Shown in pieces: positions 19,181-38,275 of a DNA stretch of 64,000 nt. Position 1 is the stretch's first letter. Every line of letters begins with the position of its first letter. Below the pieces are notes generated by a model that was not told the origin of the DNA, did not search any database, and saw nothing but the letters and a program-made list of their open reading frames with translations. Both the position numbers and the translations under genes were made by a program. The DNA comes from Hydrolagus affinis. Lineage: Eukaryota. The stretch is from contig JAAILG010001574.1 of NCBI GenBank assembly GCA_012026655.1, positions 1-64,000 of the forward strand, read 5' to 3'.

Positions 19181-19246
19181 ATCAGGCAGCATCTGAGCGA
19201 GCAGCCAGTACCACAGCTGGTAGACAGGGCAGTGCTAGCAAACCAG
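19181..19246 (+). CDS. EML1: Candidate EML1 cassette exon, 66 nt, phase 1-1 (DQAASERAASTTAGRQGSASKP)
   Basis: Long AG-free pyrimidine tract ending tttttag; strong donor CAG|gtaagc; symmetric and stop-free between exons 2 and 3. Confidence 0.6.
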
Positions 19247-19583: not shown

Positions 19584-20601
19584 GCTCATTTTTATGCCCC
19601 TTAATATGCGGCCCCTTTTTCTTTGAATCTCTTTGGGATCTTACTATACACAGAATTTCTCGTGTTAGGTAGATAAATAGAGTGAGTGAGTTGAAGTCTA
19701 TGACCAAGTCCATGGGCTTTTTGCATGGTCTTTTCAGCTGTGGGCTTAATGGCCAAATGCCCTTTCTTGTCCCGTGCTATTTTGTTCCTTTGCACTTATG
19801 TGCCTGTTAAATAGTCAAAGCCGGGTCCAACCCAAAGGGTTCCTTCACACTGTTCCTTGTCTGCCCTATTTACTTGCTTTGGAAGCATGTTGAACACAGA
19901 GGGTCCTGGCAAACAGCCACCACACATCAATGACTGCTCATTTGTTTGCCCTGAATTAGCAACTGACACACTAACAAGCAAGGTTTGCAAATGGCACTCT
20001 GATCCGACACTGAGGGGAAAAGGACGTCCCCTGATAGATGGCAAAATCCTTAATAAGCAACAATACCATCCTTTTAATTATTGCATTCAATAAGGCAGAG
20101 ACACAGGATAATGAAGAACTTCAGACTAGTGTTTAAACATCATTCCTTGTTAAACGACCAAAGTACAAAGGAAATAACCTTTGAACAACAGCAGGAGTCG
20201 CCTCAAGGCTCACTCTATACTTATCGAGAGAAGCTGCATTCAATGTCCGATTTTTCACATCGTCTCGAAATGCCTTGTGGTGGAGATGGCAGTTCTTTGA
20301 ACATTCTTTAAAGAAAACTTTTAGATTTGTTAGTAATTTTCATAATTTAAATACAGATTTATATATATATATATATCCAAACGCTTGGCACCGTACCACA
20401 CAAAGCCAAGTACTGTAATATTTTATTAGAGAGCTGCCACTTTCTCAATCAGTCTAATTGCTTTCAATTCATTACCGTTGAAATTCCTATTGTCAGCAAG
20501 TGTCAACAAATAGAAAAGCATTCCCAATAAATAGTAAATTATTGCTTTGATCATTCATTTATTGCATTCATTTATTTCATTTACATTCATTGTTGCTTTG
20601 T

Positions 20602-20893
20602 GGAGTCGTGTAGCTCAGTGGTTAGAGCACTCGCCTTGCAAGGTTCGATTCTAGACAGGGCGAAACCTTGGGCAAGTTTCCTTACTCCACACACCTGATA
20701 ATAATCCCTCAAAAAAGCCAATAATAAATTGGTCATTTCAATCCACGGCTGTTTGTGGAGACACTTGGCTGCCGCTTTAGCCCCAAAATATCCAGTCAAT
20801 TCACTTCACAGTATATTCCGTGAAGCACTTTGAGACGTCCAGAAGATGTGAAAAGCACTACGTCAAATGCTGGATTATCATTATTATTATTAT
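20602..20893 (+). mobile_element. Same SINE family
   Basis: ggagtcgtgtagctcagtggttagagcactcgcc...ggattatcattattatt. Confidence 0.85.
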
Positions 20894-21792: not shown

Positions 21793-24700
21793 GTGAGCAG
21801 CTACTGCCAACTGCAAAGCAACAGGTAACATTACTAGCCTTAACATATCAGGCACCTCTTACAATAGCCCATTACACCACCCAGAGCATCTATAACTCCA
21901 CTGTCCAAAATAACAACATTATTGCATTCTCTACAATGCCATTATTTTTGTCCTGATTTTATTTCAAATGTAGGAAAATTATTTTCCCAATATAGAAACT
22001 CCCGATGTCCACTTGTTATGTAGAGAAAGGAAAGAGAAGGAGATAGTCCAGGGACCCGTTGAGTCCACTCACAGAATAATTTCTCTCATTCTACCTCCAC
22101 CCACAACTGGAACCCCACCTCCCTCCTTCTGATGGTCACTCGGTCTCCTCCTCAGAAAGACGAAAAATTGAGAAAAAAATATCTGTTTTCAAATGGCCAT
22201 TTTAAATTCCTCTTTGACACTCAAAGGCAGTTGAGCTATCTCCGGGAGATAACTATCTCCTAGTCTAATTGAATCCATCCTTTTATAGTATTATTCCCCG
22301 CAGTTTTTACCTTGATTGTTTGCTTTGTTCTACCATTCAGTGTAATGTTAAACCTTTTCATGATCTTGCAGTTACAAATATTGGCCACAATCCCCATACT
22401 TGTGTTTGTTCATGGTAACTTTATTTATGATTAGTATAACTGAGACATTTCAATAATGCCTATGGCACTTTGTAGCTCTTTTTGTAATAAAAGATCTTCC
22501 GAGAGTGTCATAAATCTTGCAAGAATTCACAGTGTAATCTCAGAAAACACCAGGAATTTATAACAATGGCATTTTATGTGATGGTTTCATAACGTGTATC
22601 ATGTTTGCAGTTATGGGCACCAAAGTTCGATCAATGTTCGCTTATTCAGGTTTTCACTTTCCCAATGCGTTTGGGTCCGTGTTTCAAGCCTTGAATAAGA
22701 TTTGAAATGAGATTATAATAAATGAACAAAAAAGAGCAAAATTGCGTTTGCCGTGATTCACAGCACCCTTCTCCCCAGCTGATACTCCTGCCAGTCACCA
22801 GTGAAAGGCCAGTTTTCACAGAACTGAACTGTCAGCAATGAACACGGCAGGAAACAACAAAACTCACTTTGCCAGATCGAAGCTTCAGATCTTTTGTAGA
22901 GACGCAGTTTGAAACAGCCATTAGCTTGCCAAGGTTTTGTGTGTGTACAGACGAGACGGTCTGTGGGGGCAAACCCACAGCTTTAGTCAATGTGGATTGT
23001 TGGGCAAATAGTTTTTCGATTAAATCTGTATCACTATTTAATAGCTGTAATTACAGCTTCCTGCAAACATAATGACCACTGAGGGGAATAAGTGTATTGC
23101 TCACATCCAGGACGCAGTGGGCATAGTTACAACATCCCAACAAATGAATTGCTGAAAATACACCAGTATTTATTTTACAGTTGTTAGGTTGGTGGGAAAA
23201 GATCCCTCAGTAATACTGCTGTTTCTTGAATTAAATGGTGGTATTATTACTTTTTGCAATCGTCAGTTTTAACTCTTGAGCTGTTATCGCTAACCATTGA
23301 CTCAGTCGTCAAGCACTGATGAAAGGGATATGTGGTTAGCATCATGGACGCTTGTAGGACGTCCTTCCGACGTGAAAGGCGCTCTACAAATGTAATTTTG
23401 TTCTTGTTGCTGTGCGCAATTGGCAACCACATACCGCCCACAAAATACACAGAAAATCCATTTTACAACATATTCCGTGAAGCACTTTGAGATGTGATAA
23501 GGCGCTATATCAAATGCAAGGATTATTAAGCGCATTCCTCTGTATCTGAACTCTTTTTATTTGCTCCTTAAATGAGTTCCTTTAAGATAATCTGCTTGTA
23601 GGTTTCACTTTCTGCCGCTTTGCAGAGGTTTACAATGGTGCAGTGCAACATTTCCACACGATACAATTCTTTTACGACTCAATATATCTGTACGTTAAGA
23701 ATGGATGATTGATATTTTGTCCTCAAGTTTTTATTTTGGTTGACAGTTAGGGCTAAACTTGTTTGGCGTTTTCCCAAGAAGTCTATTCATGTTATTTACA
23801 TTGAGACGGGTATTCCCAGCTGCTTTGGACAGTGGGGTAGAACTTTAATGACTTTCTGATTATGTATGCAGAACAGCTTCGCCTGAATAATTCAAAGTTA
23901 AATTACTTTGAAAGTAGCTAACTACACGCACAAAAAAATGTCACAGTACCCACACATAACTGCAAAGATACCATTCTGGGTAGCAGTTCATGGATAATTT
24001 TCGAGTACAGTTAACTGCGACTTAACCGTCATTGTTAATATCTGAATAAGCTCTCAAAGAGACAAAAAAGAACTGCTCTTTCACGCCTGGTAGGATAGAC
24101 CTGTTTATGCAAACGTTCTTCTATCTGATCAGACGAATGTTACACAGATTAGCTGGGGTAGCACTGGGATGAAACTGACAAAGATTACATTGATGTGGAC
24201 TTGATCAGAGCCCGGCTTGCCACAAATTGCCAGTCAATGTAATATTTTGTGGCATTTAAATTAGGAGTCATCATTAGGGGCAATCTTACTTTGGCTAATT
24301 AGGTGAAATTGTTAAATACAGAGAGATTTTTGAGCATCATTAGCCAGTGTAAATTCATCTGCCATTAGCTCTAACATTTACATTTAAAGTGGAAGGGACT
24401 ACAAATCATTGGAACTATCATCTTTGTATGTGGAGTTCTGGTGATTAAAGCACTCGCTTCACAAGCGTGAGGACCTGGGTTCGATTCTCGGGCAGGGTGA
24501 AATGTTGGCCACATCTCCTTACACCACACACATACTTCTGTTTAGCTAGCATTAAGTAGAAATTTGGTTGTTAGTAGATTGATTTGCCAGCAAGGAACTA
24601 AAGGGTAGGTGATGGATAGGAAGCCCTGCGTCCTGTATACACACACACACAAACACATGACACATACCCCACTCACAAACACATAAACAAACTCACACGA

Positions 24701-26168: not shown

Positions 26169-26219
26169 CAAGCAGGACTGTCTGGCTAGTATTTCTAAAC
26201 TGAATAAAATTCCCAAAAG
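26169..26219 (+). CDS. EML1: Candidate EML1 cassette exon, 51 nt, phase 2-2 (SKQDCLASISKLNKIPK)
   Basis: Pyrimidine tract then atacag|C AAG CAG...CCC AAA AG|gtgagg; symmetric and in frame between exons 3 and 4. Confidence 0.5.
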
Positions 26220-28170: not shown

Positions 28171-30359
28171 ATCACTTCCCACATCACATTCTGCTAACAA
28201 GATGAATTCAAGATATACAAAGAACAATGAAATCCTCGTGTTCTCTCAGCACCATTTGGGGCAGAACTTCTTTAATTGGAGGCGTATATAAGTGTTATTC
28301 GCCATTCTTTAGACTTACAAAATAAAGCCTCTCATCCGTTACAAAGCAATCAATACATATTTCTCTTTTTCCGCACATCAGTAATCCAGAAAATTATTCA
28401 AAAGAATACTATTCCATGCAATTAAATGATGAATTGTCTTTTGTTCAAAAATAATGAAGATTTGCTTGAGGTGCTGCTAACAGTGAACATTAAATAATCT
28501 ATATATACAGATTGGTCTATCAGATATTAAGAGTGATTTTCCATTCAAAGAGAAAAGCTTTTACAGACTTAAATTATCTTTTTTATTTTTGTGCATGAAT
28601 TCTCACCACACTCAAGAATATGTCTCTTACAATTTGGCTTGGCTTCAAACAGTATTAGGTAAATCTGCTCCAATTCTGGGGGCAGTGATGTAAAAGATAT
28701 ATGAGTTTTACAGTAGTTATCGCTTGAACATGATCCCTGAAAGTTTAAATGAATCCAAGTCTTGGTCCCTGAAGGAGCATTCATCTCTTTGCCCAATTTT
28801 ATACAACCTCCTACATCACTGATTGTGGGATTTTCAATCAGACCTGGTCACAGAACCATTAATTCAACCAAGCTTTTAGGGTTTGTTATCAGTGCTGGTC
28901 TTCAAAACACGCTAAATGAGTTAATTAGACATGTCACAGGTCCTACTGTAGAAACTTGGAGGCTGCATTTTACACCGAATTAATGTGATCAGCTCTGCAT
29001 GCCTTTTGACTCATCATATAAAATATGCTCTTAGGTAAATAATTTAAAGAGTCTTCATTATCAGTTCTCAAATCCCTAATAGAATAGTTGATTGTTATTT
29101 CCTGCAAAAGTAACCATCTTAGAGAGCTGAAGAAGTTATAGAAGTTGCCATTTTATCTCTCTCTATCTATCTGTCAGATTAAGGGTAGTTTATTGCTTTG
29201 AGTTTACATTTGTTATGTCAGCCTGGTTCAGTTAATAGCACTCTCACCTCACATTCGCCCACAAATATACAGTCAATTCACTTTACAGTATATTCTGTGA
29301 AGCGCTTTGAGACGTCTAGAAGACGTGAAAAGCACTATATCAAAATGCAAGGATTATTATTATTATTAGTAGTAGTATTATTAGATAGTCTATGTTGACA
29401 CTCCAGTGCAATGCTGGGGGTATGTTGTTGCATTGTCAGAAGTGCTGTCCTCCAGATAAGACACTAAACCAAAGTTTTATCTACCCGTCCGTACAAGTTG
29501 ATATTCTTCTGGTATTCTGGCCAACAATCCTAAATTAAAATTGGTCATTTACTTCATCACTGTTTGTGGGTCGTTACCGTCTGCAAATTAGCTGCCGGGT
29601 TCACCTGCAAAATTATACACAGTTCCTACACTTTACAGACTCAAAGGGAGATCTTGAAAAAAATCTTCATGTCTGGGGGTTTAAAAAACAAGCTCTAGAG
29701 GTGAAAGGACAACAATCTAATATACTGACCAGCCTCCAACTGTGAATTTTTTTTGTTTGCAATATACAATAATAAGATGTCATTCTGCAATCCACCCCTT
29801 TTCATTTTCATGGCTGCACCCTACAATCGTTCGTATTATCAGGTCAGTTTCACACCTTATTTATTCCATGTGGTTAGAGTATAGGCAGTCAGTGTTCAGT
29901 TCGCATTCTGATTAATTATAATGTAAAGCAGGATTGTTATTAGAAATTAATGTTCAAACTAGTTTTGGACACTTTGTACAAGTATAACCAAAGATGAGTG
30001 TATTCAAGACTGTGTGGAAAATTAACTGTGTGTTTAATAAGAGGTGGCATTCTAATTTTTAAAGAGCTTCATAGTAGTTTTTATTGTTTCATGTTCTTCA
30101 CCCCCACCAAAAATCTACTTTGTTGACGTTGCAGCATAGAGTCATAGAATTATGGATTAGCGGGAACATTATTGCATAAAAGGAGGCCATTCAGCTCGTA
30201 GTTTGTGTTTGTACTGCGTTGATTTAGCCAAAAGAGCGATGATTTGCAGACAATTGGTTTTGGAAATGCTCAGTGGAAATTATACTAATTGACAGTATTA
30301 TGCTATGCCACTAGCTTGCCTCGAAGGAAGAGCTAACTCACCATTTTCTTTTGACCCAG

Positions 30360-30494
30360 TGGTGTGAAGAGAAGCAACTCCTCTGATCGGGTGCCACCAG
30401 CGGCTCGCCGAGAGAGCTTTGGAGATTCCAAAAACGTCAGGACACGTACAGGATCGACCAGCAGTGGTTCGAGTGGAAAGAAGACCAGTGATAG
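30360..30494 (+). CDS. EML1: EML1 exon 4 (Ser/Arg/Lys-rich basic region), 135 nt
   Basis: acccag|T GGT GTG AAG AGA...AGT GAT AG|gtacac; GVKRSNSSDRVPPAARRESFGDSKNVRTRTGSTSSGSSGKKTSD. Confidence 0.92.
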
Positions 30495-31613
30495 GTACAC
30501 ACGTTCATAACCAAGAGAACACACTATATGCAGTGTCAAATAACTTTTAATGATGTGTTACTGCCCTTTCCATGCAGTAAAGATATAGAACGTACAGAAT
30601 GCAAAGAAAGTGTTGGAGGAATCTCATCAAAATATGTAAATATAATACATTACATAAACAGTAATGAATAAGAACTATGTATAAAACTGACATGAAAAGT
30701 AACGGTCTTCAGTCAACAAATTGTGGACTCTTAATTGCGATATTCTTAATGGCATTCTAGAATCTGAATCACACGAACGGCAGTAAAGCACAACAACTGG
30801 AATCCAAACTACCGGGACTCTTTGAGTGCTCCACCACAAGCTGCTCCCAGAGATTTCTGATAGAATTCTTTACTGATTCATCTTGTTAAGCTCCATCGCT
30901 TGGGGTCTGACTTGTAGGATGACAGTATGGACATTGGGTCACTATTGAGATTCCCATTGGCTGACGGCAATGCACGTCTGTGATTAAGGCTCGTCGGAGC
31001 CCCAATGCAGTATTCTCAGAGACCTTGAAATAAATCTGCAGCAGCACAGATGGTGCTGGCCACTAAATAAATCATCTGCTTGACAAACATTTGTCTTTGG
31101 AAGGTAGAAGGTCAGAACACAATTGAAAGTGGAGAAGGCTGAACAACAGCAAAACGAGATGATGTTAGAGGTGGGGGAGAGAGCACGCTTTTGGCAATCA
31201 GAACACAATTGTACTTTTGCTCATAAATATCAGAACCTGACTTAATGAAACATGATCTATTCCATAGTACATCAACTTCGGGGTCAAAAGGATTCAGTTT
31301 CTCTGAATTATGGCATTGTTTTTTAATTAAAGTAAAAGCAATGCAAACCAAAATCCATACTGCAGTCATATGCAATCCCAGCAGAAGGAGGACTGGAACT
31401 AATGTGTTAAAGGGGAAGAAGACTTTAGGAGTAGGAATTTTGAACATGTGGTTATTAGCTGTCCTAGTACTGTATCAAACGTGCCCAAGCAACTTTATTT
31501 TTAACTGTGAAAAAACTCCCAATTGCTGTAAAACCACAGGATCTTGGCAACTGCAAAGGCAAAATAGGTTAATGTTTCATGCTGACTAACCTGTATTCTT
31601 AGCATTTCTCAAG

Positions 31614-31910
31614 TGTGTCAGCCTTGTGCGGTGGTAGCACTCTCACTTGTGAGTCAGAAGGTTGTAGGTTCAAGCCCTACCTCAAAACTTGGAAATACAT
31701 AGTCTAAGCCGACGCTCCAATGCGGTGCTGGGGGTGGGGGGTGTTGCATTGTTGGAGTTGCTGTCCTTCGGATGAGACATGACATTAAACCAAAAGTCCC
31801 AACGACCTGCACAAGTGAATGTCAAAGATCCCACTATTTGAAAGAGAAAAGATTTATTCTGGTGTCCTGGCCAACAAATTCACCCCAAATAAAATCGGTC
31901 ATTCACCAGA
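31614..31910 (+). mobile_element. Older DeuSINE/SacSINE1-like element
   Basis: gtgtcagcc...ggtagcactctcac...gagtcagaaggttgtaggttcaagccc...tgcattgttggag...ctgtccttcggatgagac. Confidence 0.65.
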
Positions 31911-32050
31911 TGTTTATTAATACTATCATTTTAAAACAAACAATGAATTTTGTTTTAAAAAAGCAGGAGAATAATTTAAATCCATTGAAAGATAAGCCTC
32001 TACGCTATACTGAGATTGATGTTAGTCCTCTGTTGTTTCTATTTTTACAG

Positions 32051-32079
32051 CAAATCCAAGGAGCCTCTCTTCAATGCAG
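32051..32079 (+). CDS. EML1: EML1 exon 5, 29 nt, phase 2-1
   Basis: tttacag|C AAA TCC AAG GAG CCT CTC TTC AAT GCA G|gtgagt; KSKEPLFNA; needed to keep the exon 4 to exon 6 frame. Confidence 0.9.
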
Positions 32080-32446
32080 GTGAGTGGCATTCAGACTGCA
32101 TTGTTCATTTGTTAGGTTTCTGGGTGAGAATAATCATTTCAACTTTTGAAGAAATGTATGTTTTTGAGTTTAGGGTCTTTCATCCTATATGCCTTCAGAA
32201 ACCTTTACACTTTCAAACTCCATTTAAAGTCTTAATTTTGGGAACCATTGAATGGTTTCAGTCTAAATAGCCCAATAGTGTGTCATCCACATCAGGGCAA
32301 GAGAGAGAGATGTTTTGAACCTTTTGTGGTAACAAGTGATCCTAGTGATTGGATGTATGACTAAGAATTCTAGATGTAGATGATGAATAATAAATGAGTC
32401 ACTCTACGACTGTGCCAATGTACCCTTTTTTTATTTTCCTTAATAG

Positions 32447-32478
32447 ACCGAAAGCACAGCCACTATGCAATTTGGCAT
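32447..32478 (+). CDS. EML1: Candidate alternative exon 5b, 32 nt, phase 2-1 (RPKAQPLCNLA)
   Basis: ttttttattttccttaatag|A CCG AAA GCA CAG CCA CTA TGC AAT TTG GCA T|gtaagt; same phases as exon 5 and a loosely similar peptide. Confidence 0.5.
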
Positions 32479-33146
32479 GTAAGTGCTTTTTGGAGTGTTT
32501 TGCCCTGTTTCTCTCTCCCTTCATCCTTCACTTGCTGCTTGTTTGCAGCTAGGAATGTCTCATTTTATTGCCTAAAACCACTCCATGTTGCAGGTTCTAA
32601 CAAAAGGGGCATTGAGATAGCCTCCTTTCCTCATAATTCTCAGTAGGCAAAAATGCCCTGGCAACTCAGGTAATCAATGTATTCACTTGTGGGGCTCGCA
32701 ACAACCGAATGAGAGAGATTACATTCAACAGTGAGAAGAGATGCAGTTTTAGAAATGACTGGACTTTAGTTTCCTCCATAAAGTTTGAAATCAGTATTTA
32801 CATCCAGACCAGAGTGCTTCTCTCTGTATATACACAGTGAGTCTCCAAGGGAGACTGTGGGCGAAACAACACAAATGACTTAAATATTGAGCACTGAGGA
32901 AAATGTTCTTCACAATTCCCCCATTAAATACCAATGCTGAAGGGATAAATTCATTGATTGGACTGGAATCAGAAGTGCAAAGTTTCGGAAGTTTATCTGT
33001 GACTGTGTTTCTATAAAAATTGTTTTTAATTTTTAACCTATTTTGCCTTCTGGAATTAAAAAAACAAAAACAAAATATTCAATTCAGTTTACGTTTTTTT
33101 TGTGGTGTAGGGTGAGGGACTAATCAGATTTTCTCCCAGAGGTATT

Positions 33147-33439
33147 ATAATATTAATAATAATCTTTGCATTTGATACAGTGCTTTTCGCGTCTTCTAGA
33201 CGTCTCAAAGCACTTCACAGAATATACTGTAAAATGAATTGACTGTATATTTGTCGGCGAAACGCATATAGCAGTGTCCCTTAAACAGTCATGGATTGAA
33301 ATGACCAATTTATTATTGATTTTTTTCAAGGGTTTATTGTCAGGTGTGTGGAATAAGGAAACTTGCTCAAGGTTTTGGAATTAAACCCAGGTCTCTCACT
33401 TGGAAGGCGAGTGGTCTAACCACTGAGCTACAGGACTCC
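33147..33439 (-). mobile_element. Same SINE family
   Basis: Reverse-complement copy with head and (taa)n tail. Confidence 0.85.
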
Positions 33440-34609
33440 ACACTTTCGCCAGATTCCAGTCACTTTCTGGTACCATGCCCAATACTGGCCATTATTCCTG
33501 TCTAAGCAGTTCACATTGACTAGCTGATTGATAATCGAGAGATCAAAGCTGAACCCAGTTCAATCTTTGGCAGACCGACACAGGGGCACTTTCTACTATT
33601 GTACCATGTAGAAATCAGGAGTGGGGACCCTGGCTAATTTCTCCTTCTTAGCCCAGGGGTATTCATGCTATTCTGATACACATCAAAGCTCTCAATAAGA
33701 ACTAGCCTAAAATTGAGACGTCCAGAATCGTGCTTTATTTTGGCTTCACTTAAAAAACATCCACCCTGCTTGTAATATATTAATTGTATGGTCAGAGAGA
33801 AGTACGGTTGGTGAAATTTAGTTTTGAAACATTATTTGTGAAGTCTCAATCTACTGGAGTTGATAGAGAAAATAATTAATTAGTAACATGGCAACAGTAT
33901 TAGCACAAGTCGATCATTGATGAATCCCTTCAATTACCCATCCAACTTCCTAACAGATTCCCTTAAAACATTTAACTTGTCATGCTTTGACCCTGAATCA
34001 CTTGTGTCTTCAATAAAAGGGGAGCTGAACCAAAACCACATCCTTTAGATTCGACTGTTCTCTGTCTCTTGAGTTTCTCACTCTCGTTGAGTATCTCACT
34101 TTCTATATCTCTCTCTTTATCTCTGATGATCTATCTCATTATCTTATCGTTGTGCTGCTGGTACAAAACCAATCCAGTTGTGTGTGTGAGGTTACTAAAA
34201 TGCAAGTACATCTCATTCCTTGGAGTCTCGTACCCATGAGTATAGCTTCACACGTAAACACAACTGGATGCCCCATTACCTGTCTAATTGTATTGTCTAT
34301 CCTGGTGGAATCCCAGCTGTTTGGATGTGTGAAACTCAATAGAAGCAGACTATGAGGTCCTCAGCCTCTAATGACAGGCTCACATCTGCCCTGGCTCCTT
34401 TCTGACAATTTCCAGGAACCATGTTTGAAGCTCTTTATTGGTGCAAAAGCAATTGAGGGATGTTTGAAATGTTTTGTCCTGTGAGGGGTTAGTTAGAAGC
34501 TGTAAATGAACGATGGCTGCACAGCCGCTAGCATAGGTGTTAGGTGAAGCTGACTTTCCTCATACACATCTTTATCTAGCACTTCTATCTCTGTCTCTGT
34601 AATCACAAG

Positions 34610-34636
34610 GGAAGCGCCGTGTGACATACTGCCAAG
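34610..34636 (+). CDS. EML1: Candidate 27-nt microexon, phase 1-1 (GKRRVTYCQ)
   Basis: cttctatctctgtctctgtaatcacaag|GG AAG CGC CGT GTG ACA TAC TGC CAA G|gtaggt; symmetric with a good donor. Confidence 0.6.
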
Positions 34637-35801
34637 GTAGGTCTCATTTGTGCACCGTTCTAGCTCTCTGAAGCCTCCCGTTCCCCCAGCCACCCAGACT
34701 TAATCACATGTACTCACAGTCCGCTTCTGCAAGCATGCTTGCCTTCACTTTGAAAATACTAAACGTTCCAAATGATTTCCAGCCAAAACTTCCCACTGCA
34801 TTAATAAGTCTTTCCTGTGAGCGTAACCTCCCTGAATTTTAAATATTTCAGCTCTTCTGTCATTCTGCGGAAATTGAATTAATGGAGTGGGTTCAGGACT
34901 TGTGTTGTCTTTATGTCTCCATGGCTTGTGAGTCGTGTGACTGAAGTACTATATGAGGTATAGACAGGGAGCTATACAACATATAATGTAGTGCTGATTT
35001 GCCTAATAACTTGCTACACATATTAACTAGCATTTGAAGACAAAATAGACGCTTTACGCTGTAGTGTGAGTGTGTTCTACGTCTGCAGTGGTTTGTCAAA
35101 ATAGACGTCTTGATGTTTAAAAATGATTTTAAATGATTAGAAATAGAAATTGAACTGTAAAACAGATGTGAATAATGACCTTGCAAATGTCACATAATTC
35201 CGAGCAAACAAAATACAAATTTGATCTCCGCTTGCCACAATCTATTTTTCAAACAGTAAATCTTGTGCAATGTTTGTCGGGTGTAAAATTAATTTGGGAG
35301 AATGTGAGACTTAGGGTGTCAAACCGAAGAATTTTATACATTGCACATTGTGCTAACTTGGAGATATAGACAACAGCAGACGGACTTCAACTAACCTGTT
35401 GGGCAGCTCTTGTTTTCAGCTGGACTTTCTAATCATTCTAATAGCATTGTTCATTTAGCATTCCCATCTGGCCAAAACAGTCATCAGACTCTACATTCCC
35501 ACTTATTATCACTGTCTTCTCTATTATACTGTGCATTGCTGCTTAGTATAGCTATCAAACTGTACAATAGAATAGATCATTGTCGATTCGATTTTAGTAA
35601 CGGCAGTGATATAAGTAATCTTTATGGTGAAGAGAATGTTGAAACTCCTAGTTCTATATTAGTAAGAACTGAGATTAGCTGCTCTTTATATTTTCGTTCC
35701 TTAAAAACCAAAAATTGAAACCACCGCCAATCATTACATTTTGTAATCATTTTATCACTTCTCCCCCTCCGATCGTCCATATCCGTGACAACGCCACATA
35801 G

Positions 35802-36091
35802 TAACGATGCAGATATATCTGAGTCAGCCTCCAAAACTGATTGGTTCTTCTGAGAGCAAGGTTGACCCCCTTGGTCTAATGTTGAGCCAGCCATCATCTG
35901 GCCAAGAATCTGGAGCCACCTCAGTTAATGCTGTTGGGAAATCTGGAATTCGCAAGACACCCTCTCTGCCCTCGTCGTTTACAAACAGCCTGAGCCAGAC
36001 ATCAATAGTCAGTCCCAGTGACATGTCAAGGTCTCCAAGTTTTAAGAGCCAAATAAAATCTCCTAATCAGTACTTCCAGATCTGTTTTTAA
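35802..36091 (+). CDS. EML1: Candidate alternative terminal exon of EML1 (VTMQIYLSQPPKLIGSSE...KSPNQYFQICF*)
   Basis: acatag|TA ACG ATG CAG in phase 1, matching the exon 5 and microexon donors; 290-nt Ser/Pro-rich open frame ending TAA at 36089-36091; AATAAA at 36431. Confidence 0.65.
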
Positions 36092-36430
36092 ACTCCTTTT
36101 CTTATTATGTCCGTGATGGACTTGAGGGGGAATGCATCTGTCTTGCCTGTCCGCCATATATACATGTACGTCTTCTCATGTCTCTGTCTTTATTTTCTTT
36201 GGCAAATTTTCTGTGTGTTGCATTTTTAATTCTTATTTTTGGGTGTGTACTGTATGTTGGTTAAATAGCATGTTAGGCCACTACTGCTGTCTGGTCATGT
36301 GGAATGTCTCTTTGTTGCACTTGGGGATAAAACTGCATCCTTTCCTTTTTTTCTTTCTACGTTGTTTAACATTAACACCATTCACTGCATGTAACAACCC
36401 TGTATGTCAACGTTTTATGCTCTTATCAGT

Positions 36431-36436
36431 AATAAA
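36431..36436 (+). terminator. Intronic polyadenylation signal for the short isoform
   Basis: AATAAA 340 nt after the alternative stop, followed by GT/T-rich sequence (ttttggtgttggctgt). Confidence 0.5.
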
Positions 36437-36599
36437 GACAATTTTAAATTGAATTGAATTTTGGTGTTGGCTGTACTTCAATCTCTTTCTCTCTCTCTTT
36501 CTCTCTTTTCCCCTCTCATCTCGGATAACCTTATCCAATGTTCATTCAGTAGCAAACCATTCGCGGAGCGAGCATTCATTTTTTTCCTTTAACTTTTAG

Positions 36600-36729
36600 A
36601 AGAAGGATACGTGAAAATGTTCCTGCGAGGTCGACCGATCACCATGTACATGCCCCAGGAATTTAGAGAAAACTATAGCTTGGAAAATAAAGCTGAACTC
36701 CCATCCAAAAAGCTGAAGTTGGACTGGGT
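36600..36729 (+). CDS. EML1: EML1 exon 6 (HELP motif start), 130 nt
   Basis: ttttag|AA GAA GGA TAC GTG AAA ATG TTC CTG CGA GGT CGA CCG...GAC TGG GT|gtatcctt. Confidence 0.95.
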
Positions 36730-38275
36730 GTATCCTTCATTCTGTGGACTTGGCATATTTTCCGTATTGTGTGCTATCTATTTCTATCATTCTTTGCAAT
36801 GTCATTCAGGATCCTCATCCTCGCATTCAAATCCCTCCACGGGCTGGCCTCACCCTACCTTGGGATATCCTATAGATTTCCTCCCGATGCGCAATAATTT
36901 TGTATTGTACATCCATGGCTTCCTTAAACCCACTACCCAGGCCATACCTGTCACTTTGCTAACAACAGCTTGTTACATGCCCCCTGGCTGATCAGCCACA
37001 CCATCACTGGATGAGCTTTCAGTCATTCTGCCTATACTCTGTGAAACTCCATCCCAGAAAGAATCTTTCCACCTCACCCCCTCCCTCCCTACTTTGAAAG
37101 CCCACGTTAAGTTCTATCTCCTCAAATGCGCTTTTGGTCCCCCAAGCCTTCTTCCCCATCCTCCTGGCTTCCCTCTGCTCCCTTTCCCCAACCACACCAC
37201 CACCCCACCTCACTCCAGCTTGGATGCCCAATGAGCTGTGAAAAGTACTCTGAAATGTCCTCCAAACAGGCGTGAAAAGCGCTGCATAAATATAAATTGT
37301 TGCTGTGGACACATCAGCAGTGAACAAAAAACATCAACAGTTGAGAAATGGAAAATGGTTTACTAAATTGAATGCAGTGCCTAGATTTTTCCTCCTCCAC
37401 TTCCCCCTGCCCACCCATGTATTCTGCAAGATAACTTTTGTGAACAGACACTATTTTTATACACCCCTTTGTGTTCAATATCATGGTTACCCAGCGTTTG
37501 TTTTAAAAAGAGCTTGTCTGACTAGTTTTGGAAAAAAATAATCAGTTTAGATTTAGTGCAGTAAGTTACATGGATCTCTGTTTCAGGAATGTTTTAAACA
37601 AACCATTGGTGCATTGAAAAATCCGACAGTAATAATGTGCAACTGATTATTTTGGACACTACATATTTTATTACTGCAGCTCTTGTTTCAACTACAGGAA
37701 GCTGCTAGTTTATTTAGCTCCTATTATATAAATAGTTAAGGCCCTCAAGAGAATGGCAAGCAGTTGCAATGTAGATTGATGCAGTCAGCACCTCCTGGTG
37801 AAAATCGTGTTGCAGCACTTAATAATAATAATAATAATAATAATCCTTGCATTTGATACAGCGTTTTTCACATCTTCTACATACCTCAGAGTGCTTCACA
37901 GAATATACTGTAAAGTGAATTAACTGTATATTTTTGGGTGAAACACAGCTGCCAATTGCGCACAGCAATATCCCACAAACAGTCTTGCAATTGAAGTGAC
38001 CAATTTATTATTGTTTTATTTCTTGAGGGATTATTATCAGGCATGTGGAGTAAGGAAACTTGCCCCAGGTTTTGCCCTGCCGGGAATCGAACCCAGGTCT
38101 CTTGCTTTGGAGGCGAGTGCTCTAAACCACTGAGCTACAGGACTCCACTTCATCCACAATGCAAGGTTTAGAGAACTATGACTGCATGTAAAGCACTAAA
38201 ATCCGCTATATCTTGGCCTACGCAGTATGACGTTTCAGCCGTTATCTCAGTGCACGTCCTTGACAAACCTGCCAG
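36730..38275 (+). other. U12-type (minor spliceosome) GT-AG intron
   Basis: 5' splice site GTATCCTT; branch site TCCTTGAC at 38257-38264, ending 11 nt before the exon; no polypyrimidine tract. Confidence 0.9.
37820..38146 (-). mobile_element. Same SINE family, inside the U12 intron
   Basis: (taa)n tccttgcatttgatac...gggaatcgaacccagg...gagctacaggactcc. Confidence 0.88.

What the first reader, a model, noticed from the sequence alone, without database searches (positions are those of the whole stretch)
32051..36602. Exon 5a/5b pair whose reading-frame logic couples to downstream exon choice
Seen: 5a (32051-32079, 29 nt, KSKEPLFNA) and 5b (32447-32478, 32 nt, RPKAQPLCNLA) share phase 2-1, have good splice sites and carry loosely similar peptides. 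Including both (61 nt) shifts the frame, so they would be mutually exclusive. 5b ends in T, so joining it straight to exon 6 gives T|AA, a stop codon. Joining it to the 27-nt microexon gives T|GG (Trp), and to the terminal exon T|TA (Leu). Inference: a tandemly duplicated exon that is productive only together with the microexon or terminal exon, and otherwise yields a truncated or NMD-targeted transcript. This would be a built-in combinatorial splicing switch.
Basis: partly seen in the sequence, partly recalled or inferred. Interest (0 to 1): 0.72.

Follow-up and report, generated by a model that had tools for sequence, protein, structure and literature searches.

The report
Skipped duplicate exon in chimaera EML1
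In a cartilaginous fish's gene for the microtubule protein EML1, a 32-base stretch with intact splice signals is likely an old copy of the neighbouring exon, but RNA from one sample of a close relative shows it skipped inside a partly unspliced intron, so it likely acts as a rarely used stop-making (poison or decoy) exon rather than as a protein-level switch.

Summary
The window is EML1 of a holocephalan. Coordinates, phases and junction codons are correct. 5b has splice sites as strong as real EML1 exons. Its likeness to 5a exceeds chance: 1 of 1662 other open segments scores as high, and 2 of 23,262 simulated introns produce such a segment. A duplicate origin is therefore likely. The microexon and terminal exon are real and conserved to bony fishes.

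Nothing shows 5b being spliced. In three RNA runs of one sample from a relative about 1.5% diverged, 30 reads join exon 4 to 5a, while no joint at either 5b site reaches the 3-read listing limit. None of 42 cartilaginous-fish records with the exon-4 end uses 5b, and 89 of 89 microexon records have Gly, never Trp. Instead the 4.5-kb intron holding 5b is unspliced in about 35% of reads.

Best reading: a skipped duplicate acting as a poison/decoy exon (0.40). The proposed combinatorial switch is arithmetically possible but unsupported (0.22). Conservation of 5b in other genomes could not be tested.

The parts
30360..30494 (+). EML1 exon 4 (basic linker), ends in phase 2
   Evidence: tblastn 100% to C. 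milii EML1; spliced to 5a in 30 reads
32051..32079 (+). exon 5a, 29 nt, the exon in regular use
   Evidence: 30 reads in, 23 reads out; in 37 of 42 cartilaginous-fish records with the exon-4 end
32080..36599 (+). intron 5 (4.5 kb), partly retained in RNA of a close relative
   Evidence: continuous sense-strand depth about 4-15x in X4 versus about 0 in intron 4; 15 reads at 36577 versus 43 at 36604
32447..32478 (+). 5b: 32-nt segment with strong splice sites, likely duplicate of 5a, no splicing seen
   Evidence: single copy in G000; no joint listed
34610..34636 (+). 27-nt alternative microexon
   Evidence: 7 reads in, 6 reads out; conserved in sharks, rays, coelacanth, gar and teleosts
35802..36091 (+). 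alternative terminal exon, coding part with stop; gives a short EML1 lacking the TAPE domain
   Evidence: aligns with the C-termini of zebrafish, gar and Astyanax short isoforms; no joint at 35802 listed in this sample
36431..36436 (+). AATAAA, candidate polyadenylation signal of the terminal exon
   Evidence: sequence; use not shown
36600..36729 (+). exon 6, start of the HELP/TAPE region; opens with AA
   Evidence: 22 spliced reads in
36730..38275 (+). U12-type intron (GTATCCTT donor, TCCTTGAC branch site)
   Evidence: sequence; consensus recalled

Best explanation
5b is likely an old tandem duplicate of EML1 exon 5a that keeps strong splice sites, is skipped in the RNA examined, and likely works as a poison/decoy cassette that would lower full-length EML1 output rather than make a new protein. 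Shown: its sites, phase, likeness to 5a, the stop codons on the 5a+5b and 5b+exon 6 routes, its skipping, and partial retention of the intron that holds it. Inferred: the duplicate origin; selection on its splice sites (the flanks share no similarity with 5a's while both sites and the frame survive); NMD of 5b-containing transcripts, which would hide them from ordinary RNA-seq; and competition of 5b's sites with the intron ends as a cause of retention. The T|GG and T|TA routes would be escape routes that are possible but not observed.
For: Sites 9.4/8.2, median of real EML1 sites. Peptide score to 5a matched by 1 of 1662 other open phase-2/1 segments, DNA score by 13 of 1662; no flank similarity. 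2 of 23,262 simulated 6.1-kb introns give such a segment, 46 under the loosest site cut-off. 5a is constitutive in the data, so the simplest way to include 5b is after 5a, which frameshifts to a stop within 25 codons. All 8 joints are listed and none touches 5b. Intron 5 is covered end to end on the sense strand with no step at 5b, while intron 4 and the next intron are near zero. This matches the decoy-exon profile of PMC6097662: cryptic cassettes of 29-56 nt with consensus sites in retained introns over 1 kb, junctions rare or undetected without NMD inhibition.
Against: No 5b junction was seen at all, so even poison inclusion is unshown. Retention can be explained without 5b by the weak acceptors of the microexon (2.7) and terminal exon (-2.2) in the same intron; PMC6097662 notes that retained introns are enriched beside alternative exons. 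The RNA is one single-cell sample of unknown tissue from another species, 27-30% of each run read, and may include nuclear precursors. Identical residues with changed third bases (Pro, Leu) hint at coding rather than purely regulatory constraint. Conservation of 5b, a hallmark of decoy and poison exons, could not be examined. The segment was picked after the fact from a very large scan, which weakens the chance estimate.
Confidence: 0.4

Rival explanations
1. One reading: 5b replaces 5a in some tissue (brain, retina, muscle) and is productive only with the microexon (Trp junction) or terminal exon (Leu junction); joined directly to exon 6 it makes TAA and is degraded.
For: The frames work exactly so. 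Peptide likeness with synonymous changes suggests coding constraint. Microexon and terminal exon are real and regulated. Only one sample was examined; with 0 of 30 reads the 95% upper bound on 5b use is 9.5%, and 18% if 2 reads were hidden below the listing limit. The protein records come from other species, where 5b may not exist.
Against: No 30494>32447 or 32478> joints, including in X2 where the microexon is favoured. 0 of 42 cartilaginous-fish records with the exon-4 end, among them all 15 members of three C. milii clusters. 89 of 89 microexon records have Gly before it. All 9 short-isoform records with a recognisable exon 5 have 5a plus the microexon.
Confidence: 0.22
2. 5b is a chance AG..GT pseudo-exon; its likeness to 5a is coincidence picked out by a large scan. 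Retention is caused by the microexon and terminal-exon region.
For: 14 other 20-60 nt AG..GT segments on the + strand pass the lower quartile of real site scores, at least one of them a real exon and one the end of a real exon; Markov controls give about 10.6 per strand. The alignment is only 10 residues with one or more gaps. There is no RNA or protein trace.
Against: Strong sites, correct phase, open frame and top-ranked likeness coincide 367 nt from 5a; the joint rate in simulation is about 1e-4 to 2e-3 per intron pair.
Confidence: 0.23
3. 5b is a real duplicate that was once a coding alternative and is now a dead remnant; the final T is a recent disabling change with no regulatory role.
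For: Duplicate signature without any use. A single base at the exon end is enough to create the stop.
Against: After enough time to erase all flank similarity, a neutral remnant would be unlikely to keep the pyrimidine tract, AG, GTAAGT and frame (inference); it fits only if function was lost recently.
Confidence: 0.15

Closest known systems
Decoy exons in retained introns (SF3B1 intron 4 E4a-f, OGT, ARGLU1; PMC6097662, abstract and passages read)
   Same: Short cassette with consensus sites inside a retained intron over 1 kb; junctions undetected in untreated cells; inclusion gives a premature stop.
   Different: Those are ultraconserved and shown by NMD inhibition and minigenes; none is described there as a duplicate of the flanking exon. 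For 5b, conservation and causality are untested.
Homologous mutually exclusive exons (PMC5740500; SCN-alpha exons 5a/5b, PMC12772994; passages read)
   Same: Adjacent, similar length, same phase, related peptide; double inclusion frameshifts.
   Different: Validated MXEs need bridging junction reads for each exon, and both exons encode the same protein region. 5b has no such reads and makes a stop with the default next exon. EML1, EML2 and EML4 were not found by name in that paper's 10 held supplements.
EML4 33-nt optional insert of EML4-ALK variant 3b (PMC2908583, passages read)
   Same: A small in-frame optional exon after EML4 exon 6, in a fusion variant that lacks the TAPE domain (PMC5615333); comparable to the 27-nt EML1 microexon.
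   Different: It parallels the microexon, not 5b. Positional equivalence is recalled, not aligned here.
Short EML1 lacking TAPE (zebrafish cDNA AAI64638.1; fish CNG-modulin, PMC8370914 and PMC8861151, passages read)
   Same: The window's terminal exon aligns with the C-terminus of the zebrafish, gar and Astyanax short isoforms.
   Different: Those records reach the terminal exon through 5a and the microexon. That CNG-modulin is this short form is recalled, not checked; the two original papers were seen only as reference-list entries.

Membership tests
EML1 gene | N-terminal coiled coil, HELP motif and TAPE exons orthologous to EML1 | tested here: met
   HELP Pfam E 4.5e-16; coiled-coil exon 97% to C. 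milii EML1; exons map along the window
Homologous mutually exclusive exons | similar length, same phase, related sequence | tested here: met
   29 and 32 nt, both phase 2-1
Homologous mutually exclusive exons | junction reads from each exon bridging the other | tested here: not met
   met for 5a (23 reads skip 5b); none listed for 5b, one sample only
Homologous mutually exclusive exons | no reads joining the two exons, unless frameshifting | tested here: met
   no 32079>32447 joint listed; trivial, since 5b has no joints
Homologous mutually exclusive exons | each exon gives an open frame with the default downstream exon | tested here: not met
   5b+exon 6 gives TAA
Decoy exon (Parra et al. 2018) | lies in a retained intron longer than 1 kb | tested here: met
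   4.5-kb intron, about 35% unspliced at its 3' end; one sample
Decoy exon (Parra et al. 2018) | consensus splice sites, junctions rare or absent in untreated cells | tested here: met
Decoy exon (Parra et al. 2018) | junctions appear on NMD inhibition; deleting or mutating the cassette lowers retention | not testable with these tools
   needs treated RNA and a minigene
Decoy exon (Parra et al. 2018) | high cross-species conservation | not testable with these tools
   no other vertebrate genome is held; differences of the relative over 5b were not among the 40 of 89 rows shown
Poison exon | inclusion creates a stop well upstream of later exon junctions | tested here: met
   5a+5b stops within 25 codons; 5b+exon 6 stops about 128 nt before the next junction, with many exons to follow
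Poison exon | measurable inclusion, raised by NMD inhibition | tested here: inconclusive
   below 3 reads in untreated RNA; no treated sample

The most novel reading that the evidence does not exclude
A duplicated exon whose last base turns it into a logic gate: joined to the default exon it writes a stop, joined to the microexon or the terminal exon it writes Trp or Leu. Only cells that also choose those exons would make a 5b-type EML1; elsewhere the same cassette acts as a decoy that holds the intron unspliced. It would tie EML1 level and the choice of the short TAPE-less isoform to one junction codon.
Probability: 0.2. Interest if true: 0.6.

Novelty: new member of a known kind. Interest (0 to 1): 0.3.

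Why it matters
If 5b is a working decoy or poison exon, it would show a route from exon duplication to a purely regulatory cassette. It would control how much full-length versus TAPE-less EML1 is made, in a gene tied to neuronal and photoreceptor positioning. If the junction-codon gate is real, it is a neat case of NMD enforcing coupling between distant alternative exons. As it stands it is an unexpressed candidate in one lineage, built from known mechanisms, so the importance is modest.

Tried and rejected
Protein search with the terminal exon alone: 0 of 183 candidates scored; homologues appeared through. Run search: no RNA holder listed; the three RNA runs came as same-study additions. The first read lay (19.9 kb, likeness 88) was swamped by SINE repeats and its joint table was useless; only the depth table was used. 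A 20-base 5b pattern in metagenome contigs gave 3 matches, all without flank similarity, so chance. ESM Atlas gave no hit for the short-isoform tail. A paralog in G000 (L002/L003, EML4-like by its peptide) showed no tblastn match upstream of its exon-6 equivalent in the stretch held, so it was uninformative. Steric hindrance between 5a and 5b was rejected: the intron is 367 nt and the only branch-like motif besides one at the acceptor lies 156 nt from the donor. No convincing long-range RNA pairing: only scattered 10-12-mers. 5b as the start of a read-through terminal exon (35 codons, hydrophobic) was rejected for want of an exon 4>5b joint or a depth step. Apparent low divergence around 5b was rejected as an effect of the table's depth cut-off. 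The Albula gene model P0260 has an odd exon before the microexon with a Cys-Asn-Ile-Ala run; I read it as more likely a misframed 5a-like exon, untested. Earlier scan notes: 5 look-ups, nothing relevant.
Full report
GENE. The window holds EML1 on the + strand. The exon at 38172-38426 hits Pfam HELP. The coiled-coil exon is 97% identical to Callorhinchus milii EML1, exon 4 is 100% identical, and tblastn maps about 20 exons between 17711 and 51863. Several exons differ from C. milii by a few residues, so the organism is likely another holocephalan (inference).

OBSERVATION. All coordinates, phases and junction codons of the finding hold. In-script translation shows 5a open on all three downstream routes; 5b stopped at the exon-6 junction but open through the microexon or into the terminal exon; and 5a+5b stopped after 21-25 codons on every route. 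Only T at the last exon base yields a stop with exon 6.

IS 5b MORE THAN CHANCE? A matrix from 20 acceptors and 18 donors of this gene (5a included, 5b not) scores 5b 9.4/8.2; real sites range 3.7-12.1 with medians near 9 and 8. Only 5a and 5b have both sites that strong among 20-60 nt segments on either strand. Markov controls give 0.53 such segments per strand, and 16 segments on the + strand pass the lower quartile, so site strength alone is suggestive only. Among 1662 other open phase-2/1 segments of 23-38 nt, 1 matches the 5a peptide as well as 5b does and 13 match as well at DNA level; the flanks share nothing. In 23,262 simulated 6.1-kb introns, a segment with lower-quartile sites, open frame and this likeness arose twice, and 46 times with the loosest site cut-off. 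The segment was chosen after the fact from a large scan, so I put a duplicate origin at about 0.75-0.8, not higher. The 5b region is single-copy in G000.

IS 5b SPLICED? The run search listed one unlabelled contig set holding half the words and three raw RNA runs of one sample. Their reads differ from the window at roughly 1.5% of sites and lie on one strand. Over 30200-36900 the tool listed 8 joints, with none withheld. Four are splices: 30494>32051 in 30 reads (10/7/13), 32079>34610 in 7 (5/0/2), 32079>36600 in 16 (2/6/8) and 34636>36600 in 6 (4/0/2). The other four lie in a SINE. No joint at 32447, 32478 or 35802 reached the 3-read limit. The 95% upper bound on 5b use is 9.5% for 0 of 30 and 18% for 2 of 32; if the limit applies per run, up to 6 reads could be hidden. 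Only 27-30% of each run was read, the tissue is unknown, and whether this relative keeps 5b intact is not shown (40 of 89 difference rows were displayed, none in 5b).

PROTEIN RECORDS. Of 348 records gathered, none has a 5b-like peptide; the best ungapped score is 22 of 55, in unrelated places. Of 45 records in the cartilaginous-fish set, 42 contain the exon-4 end: 37 continue with 5a, 5 are UniRef C. milii models with an unrelated odd insert, 0 use 5b, and 16 include the microexon. All 89 microexon-bearing records have Gly before it, never the Trp that 5b would give. Caveats: only 15 of the 117 members of the main shark cluster were listed, NMD targets are seldom annotated as proteins, and 5b may be absent from those species.

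MICROEXON AND TERMINAL EXON. Both are real. The microexon is spliced in the RNA and present from chimaera to teleosts and coelacanth. The terminal exon aligns with short isoforms from a zebrafish cDNA, gar and Astyanax, with 21 invariant columns. Of 43 records carrying its C-terminal motif, 21 also carry a microexon peptide, 9 of them with a recognisable 5a; most of the other 22 are single-exon read-outs of genomic DNA. This isoform keeps the trimerisation domain and basic region that bind microtubules and loses the TAPE domain (domain roles from PMC5615333).

Intron 5 (32080-36599) is covered end to end on the sense strand: about 4-15x in X4 and lower in X2 and X3, with no step at 5b. Intron 4 is at 0-1x and other repeat-free intron bins are near 0. 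At the exon-6 acceptor 15 reads are unspliced against 43 just inside the exon, about 35%. Coverage runs past the terminal exon's AATAAA at 36431, so it is not only intronic polyadenylation. It could still be slow splicing caused by the weak microexon and terminal acceptors (2.7 and -2.2).

MECHANISM. I favour a poison/decoy role (0.40). 5a is in regular use. 5b, 367 nt downstream, keeps competitive sites. Its inclusion after 5a or in place of 5a creates a premature stop (shown), which would be removed by NMD (inferred), and its sites would compete with the intron ends and favour retention (inferred from the model in PMC6097662).

COMPARISON. It works most like a decoy or poison exon but is not shown to be one: NMD response, causality and conservation are untested. 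It is not filed as a mutually exclusive exon, because two defining features fail here (no bridging reads for 5b; stop with the default next exon). In PMC5740500, 60% of MXE clusters have lengths not divisible by three, so the frameshift argument is ordinary, and PMC12772994 found that NMD is not what enforces exclusivity of SCN-alpha 5a/5b.

LITERATURE SEEN. Abstract and passages: PMC6097662. Passages: PMC5740500 (plus a name search of 10 supplements, no hit; lists there may use other identifiers or be cut), PMC12772994, PMC4438066 (plus supplement rows: its brain-specific EML1 event is a 57-nt exon, not this one), 10.1101/2025.03.21.642423 (its supplements not seen), PMC13672295, PMC7101416, PMC5615333, PMC8861151, PMC8370914, PMC2908583. 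The two original CNG-modulin papers: reference entries only. I found no description of an EML1 5b exon in searches 17 (EML1 + microexon, 0 papers), 21, 40, 50 and 66; the library lacks most subscription journals.

VERDICT. Sequence observation confirmed; duplicate origin likely; use as an exon not detected; switch unproven. New member of a known kind, interest 0.3.

Noticed in passing
window 36730-38275: U12-type intron right after exon 6 (GTATCCTT donor, TCCTTGAC branch site); the paralog L003 has the same donor after its equivalent exon. It is well spliced in the RNA.
   Followed up: partly
window 26169-26219: 51-nt in-frame candidate exon between exons 3 and 4 with good sites (7.2/9.2); its peptide resembles an insert in ray isoform P0139. 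It likely corresponds to the 57-nt brain-specific EML1 exon of PMC4438066.
   Followed up: partly
window 19181-19246: 66-nt in-frame candidate exon after the coiled-coil exon; ray isoform P0139 has a related insert at this position.
   Followed up: no
P0168-P0170, P0176, P0177, P0179 (Alosa): A further lineage-specific cassette of about 15 residues between 5a or the microexon and exon 6, so this intron gains small exons in other lineages too.
   Followed up: no
P0217, P0219, P0224 and similar: Divergent teleost proteins named 'uncharacterized' or 'TPRXL' consist of coiled coil, basic region, microexon and terminal exon only; likely a second eml1 copy reduced to the short isoform.
   Followed up: partly
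P0260 (Albula glossodonta gene model): Odd exon between exon 4 and the microexon with a Cys-Asn-Ile-Ala run faintly like the end of 5b; more likely a misframed 5a-like exon.
   Followed up: partly
window 33154-33442, 20600-20860, 23400-23530, 29250-29360, 31600-31900: High-copy SINE-like repeats, heavily represented in RNA and contigs.
   Followed up: no
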